NCBI RefSeq assembly: GCF_003704095.1
Contig: NW_020845073.1
Span: 620,001 to 684,000 of the forward strand
Length of the DNA: 64,000 nt
From: Pocillopora damicornis
Taxonomy: Eukaryota
Reading direction: 5' to 3'
How positions within the stretch are numbered: the first letter of the stretch is position 1; every line of letters starts with the position of its first letter. Shown one piece after another: positions 48,001-57,000 of the stretch. The position numbers were made by a program.

Positions 48001-51000
48001 TGCGGGGAATTACGTTTCGGCGGAAACCACACATGATCACCCTGCTGCGAACGATATCGGAATAAAGAAATGAAATTTCGATTTGCAAGGACCTTAAAGT
48101 TTCGAAACCTGAAATTCGATCGACATTTTTCATTATCTTATTTGGTCATCTAAGTGAATCATCATATTTCAGATCGAAGGCGATTTTTCTAAGCGTGATC
48201 TCGCACTGCGAATACTGGTTTGTTTACTTCTACCAGGATTGAAGTGTCAAAGCTTTCATCTCCAAAGGTGAGTGCCACGGAGAGTTTTTTTATTACGATT
48301 GTTAACATGGGAACTGACAAGTTAGGATCAGACTTCAGCTTCCGATGCGATTGTCACAATGAGCTCCCACTGTTTAAAACCAACATTTACACAAATGTTT
48401 TGAGCGCGCATGAAAAATGTTGTCAGAAACACATTGTATTCTTCAGTTCCCAATTGTTCGAGAGCGATGAACGGTCAAGAAATCGTAAACATGATGAAAT
48501 TAGTCGCCTTTCTGCGTTTGAAATCAGGAAGCTCTACTTTTATCGCGCATTTTGGTTGACAGAACCTGACCTAGACAATGAATTGAAGCAACAATGTATA
48601 AACCATATTTCAAGGGCTGCATTGTATTTTTTTTCTGGAACCTTTACTAATCTAGGACGCTGCGGAATTTTATGGAAATTTATTTTTCCCTTTAAGTTTT
48701 CGTTAAACCTATCCAACAGATTTGAGTGCTTTAGTTCATCTTCTTTCAATGACTAAAATTTTATTACAGGTGATGCCATCTGGAATAACCATTTACATAA
48801 AATTAAAACGCATCCCTATCAACATGTCACTATCAGATCAGTCGCTGCAATTGTTCATAGATATTATGTCTGTAAATCCATATATGGAAAGTAAACTATG
48901 TTAAATAATTACTCAATACCGAATAATTTCTTTGTAAAAATACATTCGGCCAAAAATTCGTGATATCCACTGACCTTTCTCAACAAGCGTTCGATCCCTG
49001 CAGGCATTTTAAAACGTCTGTCACATTGCAGAACTTCCCTACATTCATAAAACGAAATAACTTTTTGCCTTGGCACACTTAGGTCGATATAGTATATATT
49101 GAAATCTTCAATAAGCCGTTTCATCGCAATATACAATCCATGTTGATTACATGCAACCGTTAAATTTCGCATCGTTTTATTTTCGCGCCTCAGCAGAGAC
49201 AGAAGATAGCTCTGTTCCTTTGTTTGTTTTTATTTAATTGCTCTTTTGTTAATTGGTTTGAATTAACCTTTTTGTGATGCCTATTGTTGCATGTCTGTTT
49301 TGCTCTCGTGTGAGACCTTCAAATATCCATGCCTTTAGAGTGAGATTAAAGTTCTTCGCTTCGGGAGGGTCAGTTTCCTTTTCTGCGTTGGACAGTTCGC
49401 TGCAATTAAAATCTGATTAGCTACGGTGTCTCCTTTCCTCGGCTACCTTGACATATAATTGCATCCAAAATATGTGACTTCCTGTGGTTCTTCTGTTATT
49501 GTCTCACAGTAATTTTGTCACACTTTGATTTGTAAATGATTTTGGCAAGGGTAAACAAACTCAAATCGAAACCTTAGACCTGTGAGTGTATTAAGTTGGC
49601 GATCTTGGTCAAACATGCTAAATATATGCTTATCACCGTCTTACATTACACATTTCCACGAATGAAAAATTCCTTATAGATTGTATTTAGTCGGAGTGCA
49701 AGAGAGGATCAATCTCTCTTTTTCAATGAGATTAGTTAAGCTTTTTCAAAATGCCATGTTAATATTTTGCGCGAGGCACGCGTGTGGAAACTCACAAAGC
49801 ACGCGCGCGTGCTGAGTTTACTTTTGTGCCATCTTTTCCGGAAGTCAACAGTAAGAGTTAGCCTAATGATGTTGTGCGCCCCGACATAAACTTATTGTTC
49901 CGAAATTTTCTGTGATCTGCCAAAGCAAACCGACGTTAAGTTAAATGGGCTTTTTGCATGGGATCTGGACCCCCTCCCACTGCACATTTGGACTCCCTAG
50001 GTCCAAAACAAGCCCTTCTCAAACCATGTGCATCCATTCCTCGCTCAGATTTCACTGAATCATGTTATGCCAACATTCGGGTAAAATACGACGGCAGGAT
50101 ACTGACAATAATGATTTTACTTCTGTTGTAAATTATGAAATGCACTTTGTTGTCCGCTGGTGTCTTCTACTGACATACTTACGTCTACACGTGTGATCCA
50201 TTTGTAAAACCACTAGTAAATTAGGGAAAAGGTTTGTATCTATTCTCAAGTATATTTTGCATGTGAACTCTCACAAGATGATCATTTGATTTTACCTAAC
50301 TATAACCTACACTTGCATAGTACGCGGGAGAGGGGGCGAGGTTCAGAAAGGGACCGGGTGGGTCCAAATCCGCTATGACACGGGCAACAAGGGAGCTAAC
50401 ATTTCAACCACTAAGAGCGACTAGCGTCAAATTTTTCCTCATCGTGTCACCCCTAAATCAAACATTAAGGTCATGAGACTAATGGAAATGATCAACAAGT
50501 ACAGGAGCTCTTGATTGTTAAGCAAAATCTCCTTGTCAGCACCTTAGGAAATTTATGGAGAACAGTATGGAGAATATACATAATGATGTTCGGGTGTGAA
50601 GGGTTAAATTCACCAACTAATCACTCTTCTGTTACATTTTTTCATAGCACTGACAGAATAAAATAGCGAAAAAACTAGCCAAAGAAAATGGAGGAAAAAG
50701 CCTTGTCATTGGAAAACAGTGGCTCAATAACTCCCCATGTGAGTATTTCGTCAATCGATGGAAATGGTCAAAGTGATGTTGACCAAAACGAAACGCAGTG
50801 CCAAGAACATGATGAGCCAAATGGAGGAAATTCTCTCGAGGAGGATGAAGAAGAGGCTTTAAATGATAAGAATATAGTGATTTTTAATGGACCCAAGAGC
50901 GACGGAGTGGTTAACTATGGTTTTTTCGATCTCGAGGACGAAGATGAATTAGCTCCTAGCGAGGGCTCTCACAACTTACAACATGAAGAATTTGATGAAA

Positions 51001-54000: not shown

Positions 54001-57000
54001 CCGAGGTTGTGGAAAAGAGGCCTGTGTCACTTCACATGGAGCACTTGTATGGCGAAGGAGAAAGCAACGACATTCGGGAACCAGTAGAAGAAGCATCCAC
54101 CACTGTAGTAGAGTCGGAGCCTCGGTCGCTCTCGTTCCATCCTATTTTAGAAGAGGCTGAAGAACCGGTAAAGCGAAAAAATGGTGATGTTATTTCACCC
54201 GAACTACCTGGGGAACCTAAAAAAGACGAAGAAATGGACATTAAAGATCTGGAATCAATACAAGAAACTCATGTCGTAGCAGTGGAAACAGCACCGCAGT
54301 CATTTGATTATCATCCAATGCTAGAGGTGAAGGAGGAAATACAAGAGGAGGATAAGGCCTTTGATGAAAATTCTCTGAAACTTGCTTGCAGATCTGAAGA
54401 AGGCGAAGAAAGACACGCCGGACAATCAACAGAAATAGAGGAGGCTATAGCAGAAGAATCTCCCCTCGTTATAGAAAAAAGACCTGTTTCACCTGACATG
54501 GAGGTGGTGTTCGACGGTAGGGACGACGAAGGAAAGAAACCAGTGGAAGACGCCTTACAAATTCTGACAAAAGAAAAGGCAACAGAACAAAAAGAACCAG
54601 TCACAGAAGCGCAGCTTGTAGTGGTAGAGAGGAAAACTGCTTCAACTCAGCCAAAGGTGCTGCTCGATCATGAAACTCCTGGTGATGAGTTCGCAGACGT
54701 GGCAGAGGAAGACAACGAAGCCACGGTGGAGTCCTTGCTCAGTAATATTGAATCGATAATCGAAAAGCCATCTTCAGGACAATCATACAGTAAAGAAGTG
54801 GAATTAGCACCAACGAGCGACAAAGAACCCGTCGAGGAAGAGGCAGTTTTCAAGATTGAGAAGAGGGGAGCTTCACTCAACATGGGGTCGCCCCTTGATC
54901 CTGAAATCTTTGGAGAACAATTCCAAGAAACGTATCCTGATACACAAGAAAAGCAATACATTGTCGACGAAGTTGTTACAGTTATAGTTCAAAAGAAACC
55001 CGTTTCTCATGCTTTTTATGACGAGCAGGAAGGTGACACCCAAGAAACAGAATCCTTTTCTAAGGACGAGCCTCCGTCGGTTGTTGTGTTAGACATACCT
55101 CAAGTAGAGAAAAGGAAGGAAGGCGAGGACTCCGTAAAAGAAACAGCTGCCCCTGTTGTACGGAAAAATGAAGTTGAGTTTTATCCTGATCTTTTAGTGC
55201 TAGAGGGAGAGGAAGAACAAAAACAAAAGGAATTTGACGTGGCACACAGCAAGCAAGCAGTAAACAAAAATTGGCAAGACACTAAGCCGACCGAATTCAT
55301 CACGACCACAACATCGGTTGTAACGTCAATAGAAAGTACTGATGAACAATCTGCAAACGACAGTGAAACCATTGTAACCAAAACGGTTTACGAGAAAAAG
55401 ACTTTCGAGGTAGCCAGCAGTTCAACTAATTCTCTTCCTGACACGGTCACAACAGAAGAAATGCTCTCATCAACTTCTTATACTAAGCAGTTTCATGAGG
55501 GGAACATGGATGGCGAGGTGGAACTAATCCGTTACGTGCTTCGGAAGAGGCTCTCAGCTCCCGAAATATTACCCGAGAAAGAAAGCGAAGGTTCTGCACC
55601 TTTGGCTGCATCGGAGGATCGTGGAATTCTTGAGTCTCAGGAGCAGTTTAACGTGATGGAAAGTCCTCGGAAAGTTAAGGAGTCTTCGCTGCCAAACAGA
55701 ACACAGGGCGAAGACGAATCTGAGATGGAACCTTATACAGATATTCCCTATGAAGAGAAGCTTATTCCGGATTCTCTGGGAGAGGCACAACCTCAAGTTG
55801 CCGATTCGGTGGAGAAGGAAGAAGGTGCTGATGAAACATTACCTGTGCTAATGCTGTTAACGCCTGAGACGGCAGGAGAAGAAAAGAAAAGTACAAAAGC
55901 GAAGAAAGGTGGGCTTTCATCGCCACAATGCAAGTGTTGCTCAGTGATGTAGATTTGACGAACGATAGATGCAGCTAATAGCAAAAGCCTCTTGTAACTT
56001 AAAGAGCTTATCAAAGCCTACGTCAAGGAATGCTAACTGTGTGAAAAATGCGTCTTTAGTTAGATGCATGTCATTGATAAAAGAACACGGTCGTATTAAC
56101 TACCCTTAGCGAGTAGTGAAAATAATGAATTTATACTTTTATCAGCTAGTTTGGTGCTGTGACGCACAATTGACGCTTTGTCTTCTTTATGTGTTTGGCA
56201 TAGTTCCGTTCTTGAACTAGAAATGTACTAAGTGCTTTATACGATATTCTTTAGACTGTAGAGGAGACATGCACAGTTATAAAACAACAAATATCGTTGT
56301 TTTAGATTCGTATATCAAGGCGACTGAGTCGAGACACCTCAACCAAATTCGATGTATTTTTTTCCTTTCTTCTCTAATTCATTTCCGGTTAACCAAGGTT
56401 CAATAGCGACTTTGCAGCCTCTATCGTTTAAGATTTAAGACGGAAAACAGCGGCTTTGAAAATATTTGGTGCGCTGAACTCGGAAATTTCTCTTGCGTTC
56501 CTTATTTTCTCCTTATAGGGGCGAGGAAACGTCACGTTTCTCTGCCAAAAGACTTCAGTCTTGAGGTTGCTTTTTTTTCATAGTTTCTTTAAACGAGCGG
56601 TATTTTTTTTAACCTGTTTTGCCCTTGGAAGAAGAATTAGTTTTATTTGTTCCTAGACGTGTAAACGGGTGAGCTTTTATTACTTGCAAGTGAACTCTAA
56701 GAATAAGAGAATAAGATTGGTTTTTTTATTAAATAAAGATTTCTCAATTAAGCACACTTCTATCTTTTTCCTTCCAACACAAACTTGAAGAGCCTGACAA
56801 AGAAAAACCGAAGGCTCATGTAACCAATGAGCTAAAGAACAAACAAATGAAGGGTTATTGTCAAAATGCAAAGCAAGTACAAACCTATATCGAAATATGT
56901 CATCATTGTCGTTGTGCAGGTAAACTGAGAAAGTTTATGGAACTTCTTTCAAAGATGTAAATGATTGTCTGACTTTGGAAATTAATCTCTTTTTTAACTT

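What the first reader, a model, noticed from the sequence alone, without database searches (positions are those of the whole stretch)
50688..55952. Giant acidic, lipid-anchored repeat protein with an unrecognised His-containing module
Seen: 1754 aa, very Glu-rich, no signal peptide or TM, ending in a Lys cluster plus CKCCSVM. Known: paralemmin-1 ends in CKCCSIM, a prenylation + palmitoylation signal for the inner plasma membrane. The body is unlike paralemmin: about 14 copies of EExPxVVEKRPVSLHMExxF and 8 of EASxVAVESEPRxxxYHxMLEE, spaced ~33 aa apart. I do not recognise this repeat. Inference: an extended polyanionic cortical scaffold or molecular ruler offering many binding sites, many basophilic kinase sites (KRPVS) and conserved His residues that could confer pH or metal sensitivity. 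It is a candidate Ca2+-buffering or membrane-skeleton component, e.g. in muscle, cnidocytes or calcifying cells. The N-terminal GVVNYGF resembles an NxxF sorting motif.
Basis: partly seen in the sequence, partly recalled or inferred. Interest (0 to 1): 0.75.

Follow-up and report, generated by a model that had tools for sequence, protein, structure and literature searches.

The report
Lipid-anchored acidic repeat protein of stony corals
This is a real, intact gene of a stony coral for a very long, floppy, acidic protein that is probably pinned to the inside of the cell membrane by a fatty tail and carries about twenty copies of a short conserved docking motif; it belongs to an unstudied protein family so far seen only in stony corals.

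Summary
Window 50688..55952 (+) is one open frame of 1754 aa: 19.1% Glu, no hydrophobic segment, ending KKGGLSSPQCKCCSVM. It has 14 copies of the module SPxVVEKRPVSLHMExxF and 8 of EASxVAVESEPRxxxYHxMLEE on a 33-residue pitch. The window is from a pocilloporid coral, not human.

The protein belongs to a family named so far in seven stony-coral genera of both major clades. Nearly all members end in CKCC-a-a-X. Pfam, the PDB and the ESM Atlas gave no match, and the accessions appear in no paper's main text. A profile of the C-terminus found only family members among 1.84 billion representatives.

It is not a paralemmin. The paralemmin motif, the MIF motif and the Pfam match are absent, and only the lipidation signal is shared. 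Structure prediction finds almost no order. The modules evolve under constraint and the spacer does not.

Best reading: a membrane-tethered, disordered scaffold carrying many copies of one docking motif. The module core KRPVSLHM fits the JIP1-type MAP-kinase docking pattern. That is an untested lead, and the pattern is not kept in all family members. Moderately interesting.

The parts
50688..55952 (+). Complete coding frame, 1754 codons plus TAG stop. It reads as a single coding exon. The start context is aaagaaaATGg.
   Evidence: The exact protein is already in NCBI/UniRef/ENA.
50676..50678 (+). In-frame TAG four codons before the ATG, which closes the frame upstream.
   Evidence: read from the sequence
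50626..50647 (+). Pyrimidine-rich run ending in ..ttttttcatag, a possible 3' splice acceptor of a 5'-UTR intron. Inferred only.
   Evidence: sequence reading. No RNA data were available.
50688..51608 (+). N-terminal acidic region without clear repeats (residues 1-307). It includes GVVNYGF at residues 73-79 and a degenerate A-like stretch VVVKKKTITYH.
51609..54518 (+). Repeat region (residues 308-1277) with 14 A modules and 8 B modules on a 33-aa pitch.
52296..54094 (+). Youngest part of the array: a 411-bp (137-aa) super-repeat x4.5, each unit being A-A-B plus a degenerate C/spacer.
54597..55022 (+). Degenerate A-like copies (residues 1304-1445: LVVVERKTAS, KIEKRGASLNM, IVQKKPVSHAF).
54714..54767 (+). 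Single copy of the amphipathic C module (EATVESLLSNIESIIEK, about residues 1343-1360). The same module is repeated up to 8 times in Acropora/Porites-like relatives.
55515..55649 (+). Most conserved block of the family (residues 1610-1654): EVELIRYVLRKRLSAPEILPEKESEGSAPLAASEDRGILESQEQF. It holds the only predicted helix (residues 1607-1623) and a basophilic-kinase-type site RKRLS(1623)AP.
   Evidence: (invariant columns)
55884..55949 (+). Basic patch plus lipidation signal KKSTKAKKGGLSSPQCKCCSVM. This is a CaaX box ending in Met with two more Cys just upstream.
   Evidence: The chemistry is inferred from paralemmin and Xlcaax-1.
56728..56733 (+). First ATTAAA after the stop, 776 nt downstream. 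A candidate polyadenylation signal, inferred only.

Best explanation
This is an intact gene of a pocilloporid stony coral. It encodes a member of an undescribed protein family known so far only from stony corals.

The protein is a 1754-residue, strongly acidic, intrinsically disordered chain. Its last residues (basic patch, then C-K-C-C-S-V-M) are the same kind of signal that gets paralemmins and Xenopus Xlcaax-1 farnesylated on the CaaX cysteine and palmitoylated on the two cysteines before it. The chain is therefore most likely tethered by its C-terminus to the cytoplasmic face of the plasma membrane (inferred).

From that anchor it displays about 22 copies of one ancestral 33-residue short linear module (14 A-type, 8 B-type) separated by freely evolving spacers. 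I read it as a multivalent membrane-tethered docking scaffold. Each A module is a binding site for the same folded partner, and the conserved serine inside it is a likely phospho-switch.

The best candidate partner is a MAP kinase of the JNK type (my estimate: about 0.2). The A core K-R-P-V-S-L-H-M has the residues that define the JIP1-type docking motif: a basic residue, Pro, two residues, Leu, one residue, then a hydrophobic residue, with Ser before the Leu. In addition, an S-P site lies about 20 residues after each preceding core.

The conserved near-membrane block, a helix followed by RKRLSAPE, would be a second regulatory phosphosite.

Shown: gene, family, repeats, constraint, predicted disorder. 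Inferred: lipidation, membrane location, binding, kinase.
For: Real gene under selection:
- Homologues of 850-2100 aa with the same layout occur in seven named genera: Pocillopora, Stylophora, Desmophyllum, Oculina, Orbicella, Porites and Acropora. These cover both major coral clades, whose split is dated to at least 245 Mya in the abstract of PMC5730576 (listing).
- dN/dS among the 5 super-repeats of the window is 0.13-0.41 in the modules against 1.47 in the spacer.

Anchor:
- 33 of 35 members end in CKCC-a-a-X and 35 of 35 in CC-a-a-X.
- Paralemmins are anchored by prenylation and di-palmitoylation of such a cluster (PMC3405040, passages).
- Xlcaax-1 is palmitoylated on Cys585 and Cys587 (PMC13024260, table).

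Disorder:
- AlphaFold2 of one super-repeat gave pLDDT 59, pTM 0.11 and no secondary structure.
- AlphaFold2 of the last 170 aa gave pLDDT 54.7 and one helix only.

Multivalency is what is conserved. Copy number and auxiliary modules differ between lineages: 14 A copies here; A/A'/C triplets in Porites- and Acropora-like members; about 20 near-identical 49-aa units in P0029. The core VV.K.P.SL..E persists throughout.

Logo over 381 A copies: E6 0.99, K14 0.93, R15 0.89, P16 0.96, S18 0.93, L19 0.84, H20 0.84, E22 0.93.

Docking-motif fit:
- The JIP1 D-motif is RPKRPTTLNLF. Mutating R, P, L and L abolishes JNK1 binding (PMC11892650, passages).
- JIP1-type motifs favour Ser/Thr just before the first Leu (PMC4670726, passages).
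- The strict pattern matches 7 times in this protein against 0.17 in shuffles, and 6-18 times in most Robusta-like members.
- JNK is active in Stylophora (PMC5379690, listing and start of abstract).
Against: - Nothing here shows lipidation, membrane location, expression pattern or any binding.
- The strict JIP1-type pattern is not universal. It matches 0 times in P0074 and P0082 and only 1-3 times in the Acropora- and Porites-like members, where Arg is often Gly or Thr.
- The conserved module (about 22 residues, including E6, V11, V12, E13, H20, E22 and F25) is much longer than a D-motif, and the conserved His is not explained by kinase docking.
- The regex itself is recalled from the ELM resource and was not seen in a call.
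- Matching a conserved 8-mer to one of several hundred known motif classes after the fact is weak evidence.
- Low AlphaFold confidence with shallow alignments (6 and 11 rows) does not prove disorder.
- The restriction to stony corals rests on named hits only.
Confidence: 0.55

Rival explanations
1. Polyanionic ion buffer. The chain acts mainly through its bulk negative charge and its His residues, as a low-affinity, high-capacity Ca2+ (or H+/metal) buffer under the membrane, for example in calcifying cells. The repeats only provide length.
For: - 25% of residues are D+E, and net charge per residue is -0.12 to -0.17 along the whole chain.
- His is kept in 84% of 381 A copies, and Glu at three module positions in 88-99%.
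- The family is named only from calcifying corals.
Against: - The constrained positions are mostly P, V, K, R, S, L, M and F in a fixed order, not acidic runs.
- The most acidic spacers evolve at dN/dS of about 1.5.
- A buffer would not need a conserved 22-residue pattern or a conserved basic K-R pair.
- No EF-hand or other Ca-binding family was found.
- No binding assay was possible.
Confidence: 0.15
2. Membrane-skeleton linker. The modules bind a cytoskeletal protein (spectrin, actin or similar) rather than a kinase, as paralemmin-1 binds betaII-spectrin. The protein sets spacing or stiffness of the cell cortex as a 'molecular ruler'.
For: - It has the same anchor type as paralemmins.
- Paralemmin-1 binds betaII-spectrin and tunes the periodic membrane skeleton (PMC11887803, abstract in listing).
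- The 33-residue pitch is regular.
- The conserved module is longer than a kinase docking motif.
Against: - There is no sequence similarity to paralemmin outside the anchor.
- No known actin- or spectrin-binding motif was recognised.
- Copy number and super-repeat length vary widely between lineages, which argues against a fixed ruler length.
Confidence: 0.15
3. A highly diverged cnidarian orthologue of vertebrate paralemmin (possibly paralemmin-3 / Xlcaax-1).
For: - The terminal pattern CKCCS[IVL]M behind a basic patch is identical.
- Paralemmins also have a large, poorly conserved last exon (PMC3405040, passages).
Against: - The paralemmin motif KX[KR]XXR[ED]XWL[ML] is absent from all six frames of the window, and the protein has a single Trp in another context.
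- There is no F-G 'MIF' motif in the last 170 residues (sequence).
- Pfam Paralemmin was not reported at E<=1 for 9 of 9 sequences.
- The C-terminal profile found no paralemmin among 1.84 billion representatives.
- No complete invertebrate paralemmin is known (PMC3405040).
Confidence: 0.05
4. A secreted acidic skeletal-matrix protein of the coral acid-rich type.
For: Acidic, and coral-restricted.
Against: - The N-terminus is acidic and hydrophilic with no hydrophobic core, so it does not look like a signal peptide.
- A conserved CaaX box points to the cytosol.
- It is Glu-rich rather than Asp-rich, 19.1% against 6.2%.
- The accessions occur in no paper's main text. Supplementary proteome tables could not be seen.
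Confidence: 0.03

Closest known systems
Paralemmins (PALM1-3, palmdelphin) and Xenopus Xlcaax-1
   Same: - The C-terminal signal is the same: a basic patch followed by C-x-C-C-a-a-X.
- In paralemmins this cysteine cluster is prenylated and di-palmitoylated. In Xlcaax-1 the two upstream Cys, Cys585 and Cys587, are palmitoylated. These lipids hold an otherwise soluble, largely unstructured, acidic protein on the inner face of the plasma membrane.
- The variable part is encoded in one large exon.
   Different: - It lacks the paralemmin motif, the MIF motif and any Pfam Paralemmin match.
- At 1754 aa it is about 3 times longer than the 591-aa Xlcaax-1 implied.
- The body is a tandem array of a module not seen in paralemmins.
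- Paralemmins are regarded as vertebrate-specific, whereas this family is named only from stony corals.
JIP1-type MAP-kinase docking motif (D-motif) in disordered scaffolds such as JIP1
   Same: - The core R-P-x-S-L-x-M has the basic residue, Pro, Leu and hydrophobic positions that are critical in JIP1's RPKRPTTLNLF, and the favoured Ser/Thr before the Leu.
- It lies in a predicted disordered chain.
- S-P sites lie nearby.
   Different: - JIP1 carries one D-motif. Here there are 7 strict and 14 loose copies in a row.
- The conserved module is about three times longer than a D-motif.
- The strict pattern is lost in part of the family.
- Binding is untested.
AHNAK/periaxin-type giant repeat scaffolds (analogy only, from my own knowledge)
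   Same: A very large protein encoded by one giant exon. It has a central array of roughly 130-residue super-repeats built from shorter units and is associated with the membrane cortex.
   Different: - No sequence relation was found.
- AHNAK repeats are basic or amphipathic and the protein has an N-terminal PDZ domain and no lipid anchor.
- This comparison was not tested with any tool.
Coral acid-rich / skeletal aspartic-acid-rich proteins
   Same: Highly acidic, low-complexity proteins found in corals.
   Different: Those proteins are secreted and Asp-rich. This one has no signal-peptide-like N-terminus, is Glu-rich and carries a cytosolic lipidation signal.

Membership tests
Paralemmin family (Pfam PF03285) | Paralemmin motif K-X-[KR]-X-X-R-[ED]-X-W-L-[ML], conserved in all paralemmins (PMC3405040) | tested here: not met
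   A regex over all six frames of the 64-kb window, including the shortened form R[ED].WL[ML], gave no match. The protein has one Trp, in NKNWQD.
Paralemmin family (Pfam PF03285) | MIF motif in the last exon, with invariant F-G. It is absent from PALM3. | tested here: not met
   There is no F-G dipeptide in the last 170 residues (sequence shown). LPVLMLL is only a vague resemblance.
Paralemmin family (Pfam PF03285) | C-terminal CaaX box with two further cysteines (prenyl plus two palmitoyl) | tested here: met
   The protein ends ...SPQCKCCSVM. CKCC is present in 33 of 35 family members and CC-a-a-X in 35 of 35. The lipidation itself was not tested.
Paralemmin family (Pfam PF03285) | Significant match to the Pfam Paralemmin profile | tested here: not met
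   Paralemmin was not listed at E<=1 for P0001, for seven homologues or for the isolated last 170 aa.
JIP1-type MAPK docking motif class | Basic residue, Pro, two non-Pro residues, Leu, any residue, hydrophobic residue. The regex is recalled from ELM. The critical R, P, L, L residues come from PMC11892650. | tested here: inconclusive
   There are 7 strict matches in P0001 against 0.17 expected from shuffles. Most Robusta-like members have 6-18, but P0074 and P0082 have 0 and Acropora- and Porites-like members have 1-3.
JIP1-type MAPK docking motif class | Located in an accessible disordered cytosolic region | tested here: met
   AlphaFold2 of the super-repeat gave pLDDT 59 and no secondary structure. 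The cytosolic side is inferred from the CaaX box.
JIP1-type MAPK docking motif class | Physical binding to the docking groove of a MAP kinase | not testable with these tools
No complex prediction was run.
Secreted coral acidic skeletal-matrix proteins | N-terminal signal peptide and secretion | tested here: not met
   The first 30 residues have mean hydropathy -0.51, and the best 19-residue window in the whole protein scores 0.92. No dedicated signal-peptide predictor was available.
A-kinase anchoring proteins (RII-binding amphipathic helix) | Amphipathic helix with hydrophobic pairs every four residues | tested here: inconclusive
   By eye, the C module ATVESLLSNIESII has hydrophobic residues at 3/4 spacing, closer to a heptad than to the AKAP pattern (which I recall). 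No fold or binding test was run.

The most novel reading that the evidence does not exclude
Stony corals evolved their own membrane-anchored 'kinase flypaper'. This would be a farnesylated and palmitoylated disordered chain carrying 7-18 JIP1-type docking sites. It would concentrate or sequester JNK-type stress kinases under the plasma membrane. A serine inside each site, and S-P sites between sites, would act as phospho-switches. Such a protein would be a lineage-specific, highly multivalent regulator of the stress MAP-kinase pathway that is already implicated in coral responses to heat and UV.
Probability: 0.15. Interest if true: 0.75.

Novelty: new variant of a known kind. Interest (0 to 1): 0.5.

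Why it matters
If the reading is right, stony corals carry a large, conserved, taxon-restricted protein that organises signalling or the cell cortex at the plasma membrane. It has kept its anchor and its repeated motif since the complex/robust split. That split is dated to at least 245 Mya in the abstract of PMC5730576 (listing).

The protein is currently mislabelled in databases as 'futsch-like', 'titin-like' or 'enolase-phosphatase E1-like'. Differential-expression or single-cell studies would therefore overlook it.

It offers three things:
- A clean test case of convergent, or very ancient, use of the paralemmin-type triple lipid anchor outside vertebrates.
- A compact motif that can be tested directly by peptide pull-down.
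- A possible link between membrane events and stress-kinase signalling in reef-building corals.

It is not a new principle. Lipid-anchored disordered scaffolds with repeated short motifs are a known kind.

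Tried and rejected
Searches that found nothing:
- Pfam on the whole protein, on seven homologues and on the last 170 aa gave only sub-threshold noise: GumK_N, RepB_primase_C and CbiG_mid, all below their cut-offs.
- PDB profile searches with the super-repeat (A2) and the C-terminus (A1) gave one hit at E 0.87 and none.
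- ESM Atlas, on the whole protein and on residues 1585-1754 with named clusters only, gave no usable hit.
- Literature. The five accessions or locus names are in no main text. 'Enolase-phosphatase E1' with 'coral' gave 0 papers. 'Paralemmin' with 'scleractinian' gave 0 papers. A looser search returned only coral papers without the word paralemmin among the 10 listed. The tail strings found five papers, none on cnidarians.

Ideas considered and dropped:
- AKAP-like reading of the C module: the hydrophobic spacing does not fit well, and nothing was available to test it.
- Non-gene or satellite artefact: rejected because of the cross-clade homologues and dN/dS below 1 in the modules.
- By eye I also compared the module with clathrin-box, SUMO-interaction, PP1 RVxF, calcineurin PxIxIT, PP2A-B56 LxxIxE, LIR and 14-3-3 motifs, all recalled. 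None fitted the conserved positions. No tool was used for this.

Rows dropped:
- P0070, P0071, P0072 and P0075 are short Logan fragments with systematic letter changes. They were left out of alignment A1.
- Near-identical cluster members P0036-P0048 were left out of the module counts.
- The A-module logo uses only copies that match an HMM built from the window's own protein. It therefore under-counts diverged copies. P0029 scored 3 there but 18 by regex.

Not done:
- Complex prediction was not run, because no partner sequence could be obtained.
- The bacterial/archaeal genome-contig collection was not scanned, as it is irrelevant to a coral gene.
Single-cell marker tables and skeletal proteome tables that might list XP_022783574.1 or KAJ7321499.1 could not be seen.
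A 5'-UTR intron is only inferred.
- The window is coral, not human.
- The run of 10 N at 41383-41392 was left as it is.

Full report
1. OBSERVATION

A stop-to-stop frame runs 50679..55952 on the + strand. The ATG is at 50688, with A at -3 and G at +4. An in-frame TAG lies at 50676-50678.

The product has 1754 residues: 19.1% Glu, 443 D+E against 177 K+R, 41 His, 7 Cys and one Trp. The most hydrophobic 19-residue window scores only 0.92 on the Kyte-Doolittle scale, and the first 30 residues average -0.51. Nothing therefore looks like a signal peptide or a membrane helix.

The chain ends ...EEKKSTKAKKGGLSSPQCKCCSVM.

HMMs built from the protein's own copies find two module types:
- 14 clear A modules, core SPxVVEKRPVSLHMExxF, at residues 376-1277.
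- 8 B modules, EASxVAVESEPRxxxYHxMLEE, at residues 308-1215.
- Three degenerate A-like stretches further on.

Successive modules are 32-33 residues apart within A-A-B triplets and 65-71 residues apart between triplets. Strict regexes match 10 and 8 times, against 0.04 and 0.09 on average in 1000 shuffles.

The youngest part of the array is visible in the DNA as a 411-bp unit x4.5 at 52296..54094. The modules occur nowhere else in the window.

2. WHOSE GENE IT IS

The first protein search gave 34 homologues of 1068-2118 aa. Four of these carry names: Pocillopora verrucosa XP_058943485.2 'futsch-like', Stylophora pistillata XP_022783574.1, Desmophyllum pertusum KAJ7321499.1 and Oculina patagonica XP_078360177.1. 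A cluster look-up added Orbicella faveolata XP_020601671.1 'titin-like'.

A second search used a profile of the most distant members. It gave 90 hits, 4 of them named, and added Porites evermanni and Acropora muricata ('enolase-phosphatase E1-like isoform X2').

The window is thus from a Pocillopora-like stony coral, not from a human. The family spans both major clades of stony corals, whose split is put at 245 Mya or more in the abstract of PMC5730576 (seen in the listing). No named hit is from outside stony corals.

The exact protein of the window is already in NCBI, UniRef and ENA. The named gene models that I read start at the same Met. The coding region therefore reads as a single exon, and no exons had to be joined.

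Four Logan-only members of the window's 90% cluster sit on contigs of 6.37-6.66 kb. That is the size expected for an mRNA of a 5.27-kb frame plus UTRs. It suggests, but does not prove, that the gene is transcribed. A pyrimidine run ending in 'catag' 41 nt before the ATG may be the acceptor of a 5'-UTR intron. The first ATTAAA lies 776 nt after the stop. Both are inferences.

3. ANATOMY OF THE FAMILY

Three things are kept in all members.

(a) The tail. 33 of 35 sequences end in CKCC-a-a-X, mostly SPQCKCCSLM. The two others end in GKCCSLM and ATCCSLM. One ends in Leu instead of Met.

(b) A near-membrane block, ELLRxVLRKRLSAPEvLPEKExxGSAPLAxSE..GIL. It accounts for 19 of the 24 invariant columns in an 11-sequence alignment of the last 170 residues.

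(c) The A-type core. Over 381 copies from 41 proteins the logo is I4, E6 (0.99), P9, V11, V/I12, E13, K14 (0.93), R15 (0.89), P16 (0.96), V17, S18 (0.93), L19, H20 (0.84), M21, E22 (0.93), F25. That count favours copies resembling the window's own.

What varies is the arrangement:
- In Porites- and Acropora-like members the super-repeat is a triplet. It consists of A (EEDAPVVIEKRPASLHIEH), A' (ExELVVVEKTPAALESELLVE) and an amphipathic C module (DDNATVESLLVNIESVIDH). C is repeated up to 8 times.
- In the window's protein, B is the counterpart of A'.
- The 'spacer' (DDENSVEAGDVLVDIKFEKG) is a decayed C module.
- One good C copy survives at about residue 1346.
- One unnamed member (P0029) has about twenty near-identical 49-residue units, each with SSPVVIQKRPMSLHMEE.

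Arrays have therefore expanded independently in different lineages while keeping the core. This argues that the number of cores matters.

Within the window, dN/dS among five super-repeats is 0.37, 0.13 and 0.41 for the three modules and 0.35 for the short linkers, but 1.47 for the spacer tail. These are Nei-Gojobori estimates on small samples, and the spacer alignment is less certain.

4. FOLD

AlphaFold2 on one super-repeat, using the six paralogous repeats as the alignment, gives pLDDT 59, pTM 0.11 and no helix or sheet. On the last 170 residues (11-row alignment) it gives pLDDT 54.7 and pTM 0.18. The only element is a helix at residues 1607-1623, DGEVELIRYVLRKRLSA.

The alignments are shallow, so this is consistent with an intrinsically disordered chain carrying short linear motifs but does not prove it.

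5. COMPARISON WITH WHAT IS KNOWN

No Pfam family reaches its cut-off for the protein, for seven homologues or for the isolated C-terminus. Profile searches of the PDB gave nothing. The ESM Atlas gave no usable neighbour.

A profile of the C-terminal 173 positions, scored against 1.84 billion representative proteins, found 15 proteins at E<=0.001, all of this family (the four new ones were read).

The nearest known thing is the paralemmin family. According to Hultqvist et al. 2012 (PMC3405040, passages read), paralemmins are defined by three features:
- the paralemmin motif KX[KR]XXR[ED]XWL[ML];
- a MIF motif with invariant F-G (absent from PALM3);
- the C-terminal cysteine cluster that is prenylated and twice palmitoylated.

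The same paper says paralemmins are regarded as vertebrate-specific, with only a motif fragment in the lancelet.

Here only the third feature is met. The paralemmin motif is absent from all six frames of the window. There is no F-G in the last 170 residues. Pfam Paralemmin does not match. Xenopus Xlcaax-1 has the same C-x-C-C spacing, with palmitate on Cys585 and Cys587 (PMC13024260, table rows).

So the protein works like a paralemmin at its anchor but is not a member of that family. Whether the identical CKCCS-x-M is convergent or a very old shared cassette cannot be decided from seven residues.

6. MECHANISM

Shown:
- a conserved gene;
- a conserved lipidation-type tail;
- a multivalent array of a constrained motif in a chain predicted to be disordered.

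Inferred:
- The CaaX Cys is farnesylated, because X = Met (general knowledge of CaaX rules).
- The two upstream Cys are palmitoylated.
- The chain hangs from the cytoplasmic face of the plasma membrane. Being polyanionic, it is repelled from the acidic inner leaflet and extends into the cortex.
- Each A module is a docking site.

For the partner I offer one concrete lead. The core K-R-P-V-S-L-H-M has the layout of the JIP1-type MAP-kinase docking motif:
- JIP1's motif is RPKRPTTLNLF. Mutating R, P, L and L abolishes JNK1 binding (PMC11892650, passages).
- JIP1-type motifs favour Ser/Thr immediately before the first Leu, where it bonds to an Arg of JNK1 (PMC4670726, passages).
- The strict pattern, whose regex I recall from ELM, matches 7 of the 14 A modules here against 0.17 expected, and 6-18 sites in most Robusta-like relatives.
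- An S-P dipeptide, the minimal MAP-kinase target, sits in ASPEVVEKRP about 20 residues after the preceding core.
- The Ser inside the core has Arg at -3 and could be a switch for a basophilic kinase.
- JNK is active in Stylophora under heat and UV (PMC5379690, listing and start of abstract).

Against the lead:
- The strict pattern is missing in two members and rare (1-3 sites) in Acropora- and Porites-like members.
- The conserved module is three times longer than a docking motif.
- The conserved His and Glu are unexplained by it.
- A fit found after the fact to one of many motif classes is weak evidence.

I put the general scaffold reading at about 0.55 and the JNK-type partner at about 0.2.

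7. RIVALS

It fits poorly with constraint falling on a fixed non-acidic pattern while the acidic spacers drift.
- A cytoskeletal linker in the manner of paralemmin-1 and spectrin (PMC11887803, abstract in listing) is as plausible as a kinase scaffold and cannot be separated from it here.
- A diverged paralemmin orthologue and a secreted skeletal-matrix protein are both unlikely, for the reasons above.

8. VERDICT

This is a real, conserved, unstudied family with an undescribed repeat module. In kind, though, it is a lipid-anchored disordered scaffold, which is familiar. I rate it a new variant of a known kind, interest 0.5.

What stayed unchecked:
- supplementary tables, which are closed, so cell-type expression and skeletal proteome lists were not seen;
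- the closed metagenome and viral collections;
- any binding test, since no coral kinase sequence could be obtained and complex prediction was therefore not used;
- the taxa of unnamed hits.

Noticed in passing
window 60092..61720 (-), tandem repeat 60604..61336: A second long single-frame ORF (542 aa, stop to stop) lies downstream on the other strand. It encodes a charged, coiled-coil-looking protein with a 258-bp (86-aa) unit x2.8 at 87% identity. The only Pfam signal is NurA at 22.3 bits against a cut-off of 21, with no stretch passing on its own, so it is probably spurious.
   Followed up: partly
window 57571..57736: A 36-bp tandem repeat x4.6 (also read as 73 bp x2.3) lies about 1.6 kb downstream of the stop codon, in the 3' UTR or intergenic DNA.
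   Followed up: no
window 41383..41392: A run of 10 N, either an assembly gap or masked. It was left as it is and is far from the gene studied.
   Followed up: no
window 14552..15532 (+), 20966..22276 (-), 26276..27484 (-): Three long open frames (326, 436 and 402 aa) lie in the stretch of raised G+C (0.40-0.44, against about 0.35 around it). The first is a Ser/Thr/Pro/Ala/Gln-rich low-complexity sequence. None matches Pfam. They are probably large exons of other genes.
   Followed up: partly
P0005 (Pocillopora verrucosa XP_058943485.2) against window residues ~1190-1272: The RefSeq model of the sister species is 83 residues shorter and lacks one B and one A module that are present in the window's frame. 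Members of the window's 90% cluster range from 1742 to 1754 aa, and close homologues are 1679 and 1702 aa. This is either repeat-number variation or a predicted intron inside the repeat.
   Followed up: partly
P0029 (unnamed source), residues ~430-1400: The most divergent family member carries about twenty almost identical 49-residue units (ILESSPVVIQKRPMSLHMEERVC.TEH...). This indicates a very recent expansion or concerted evolution. Its tail is ATCCSLM, with only two Cys.
   Followed up: partly
P0070, P0071, P0072, P0075 (Logan fragments): These short fragments of the C-terminal block have systematic substitutions, many residues being turned into F, I or L. They look as if derived from chemically converted or error-rich reads. 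They were excluded from the alignments.
   Followed up: no
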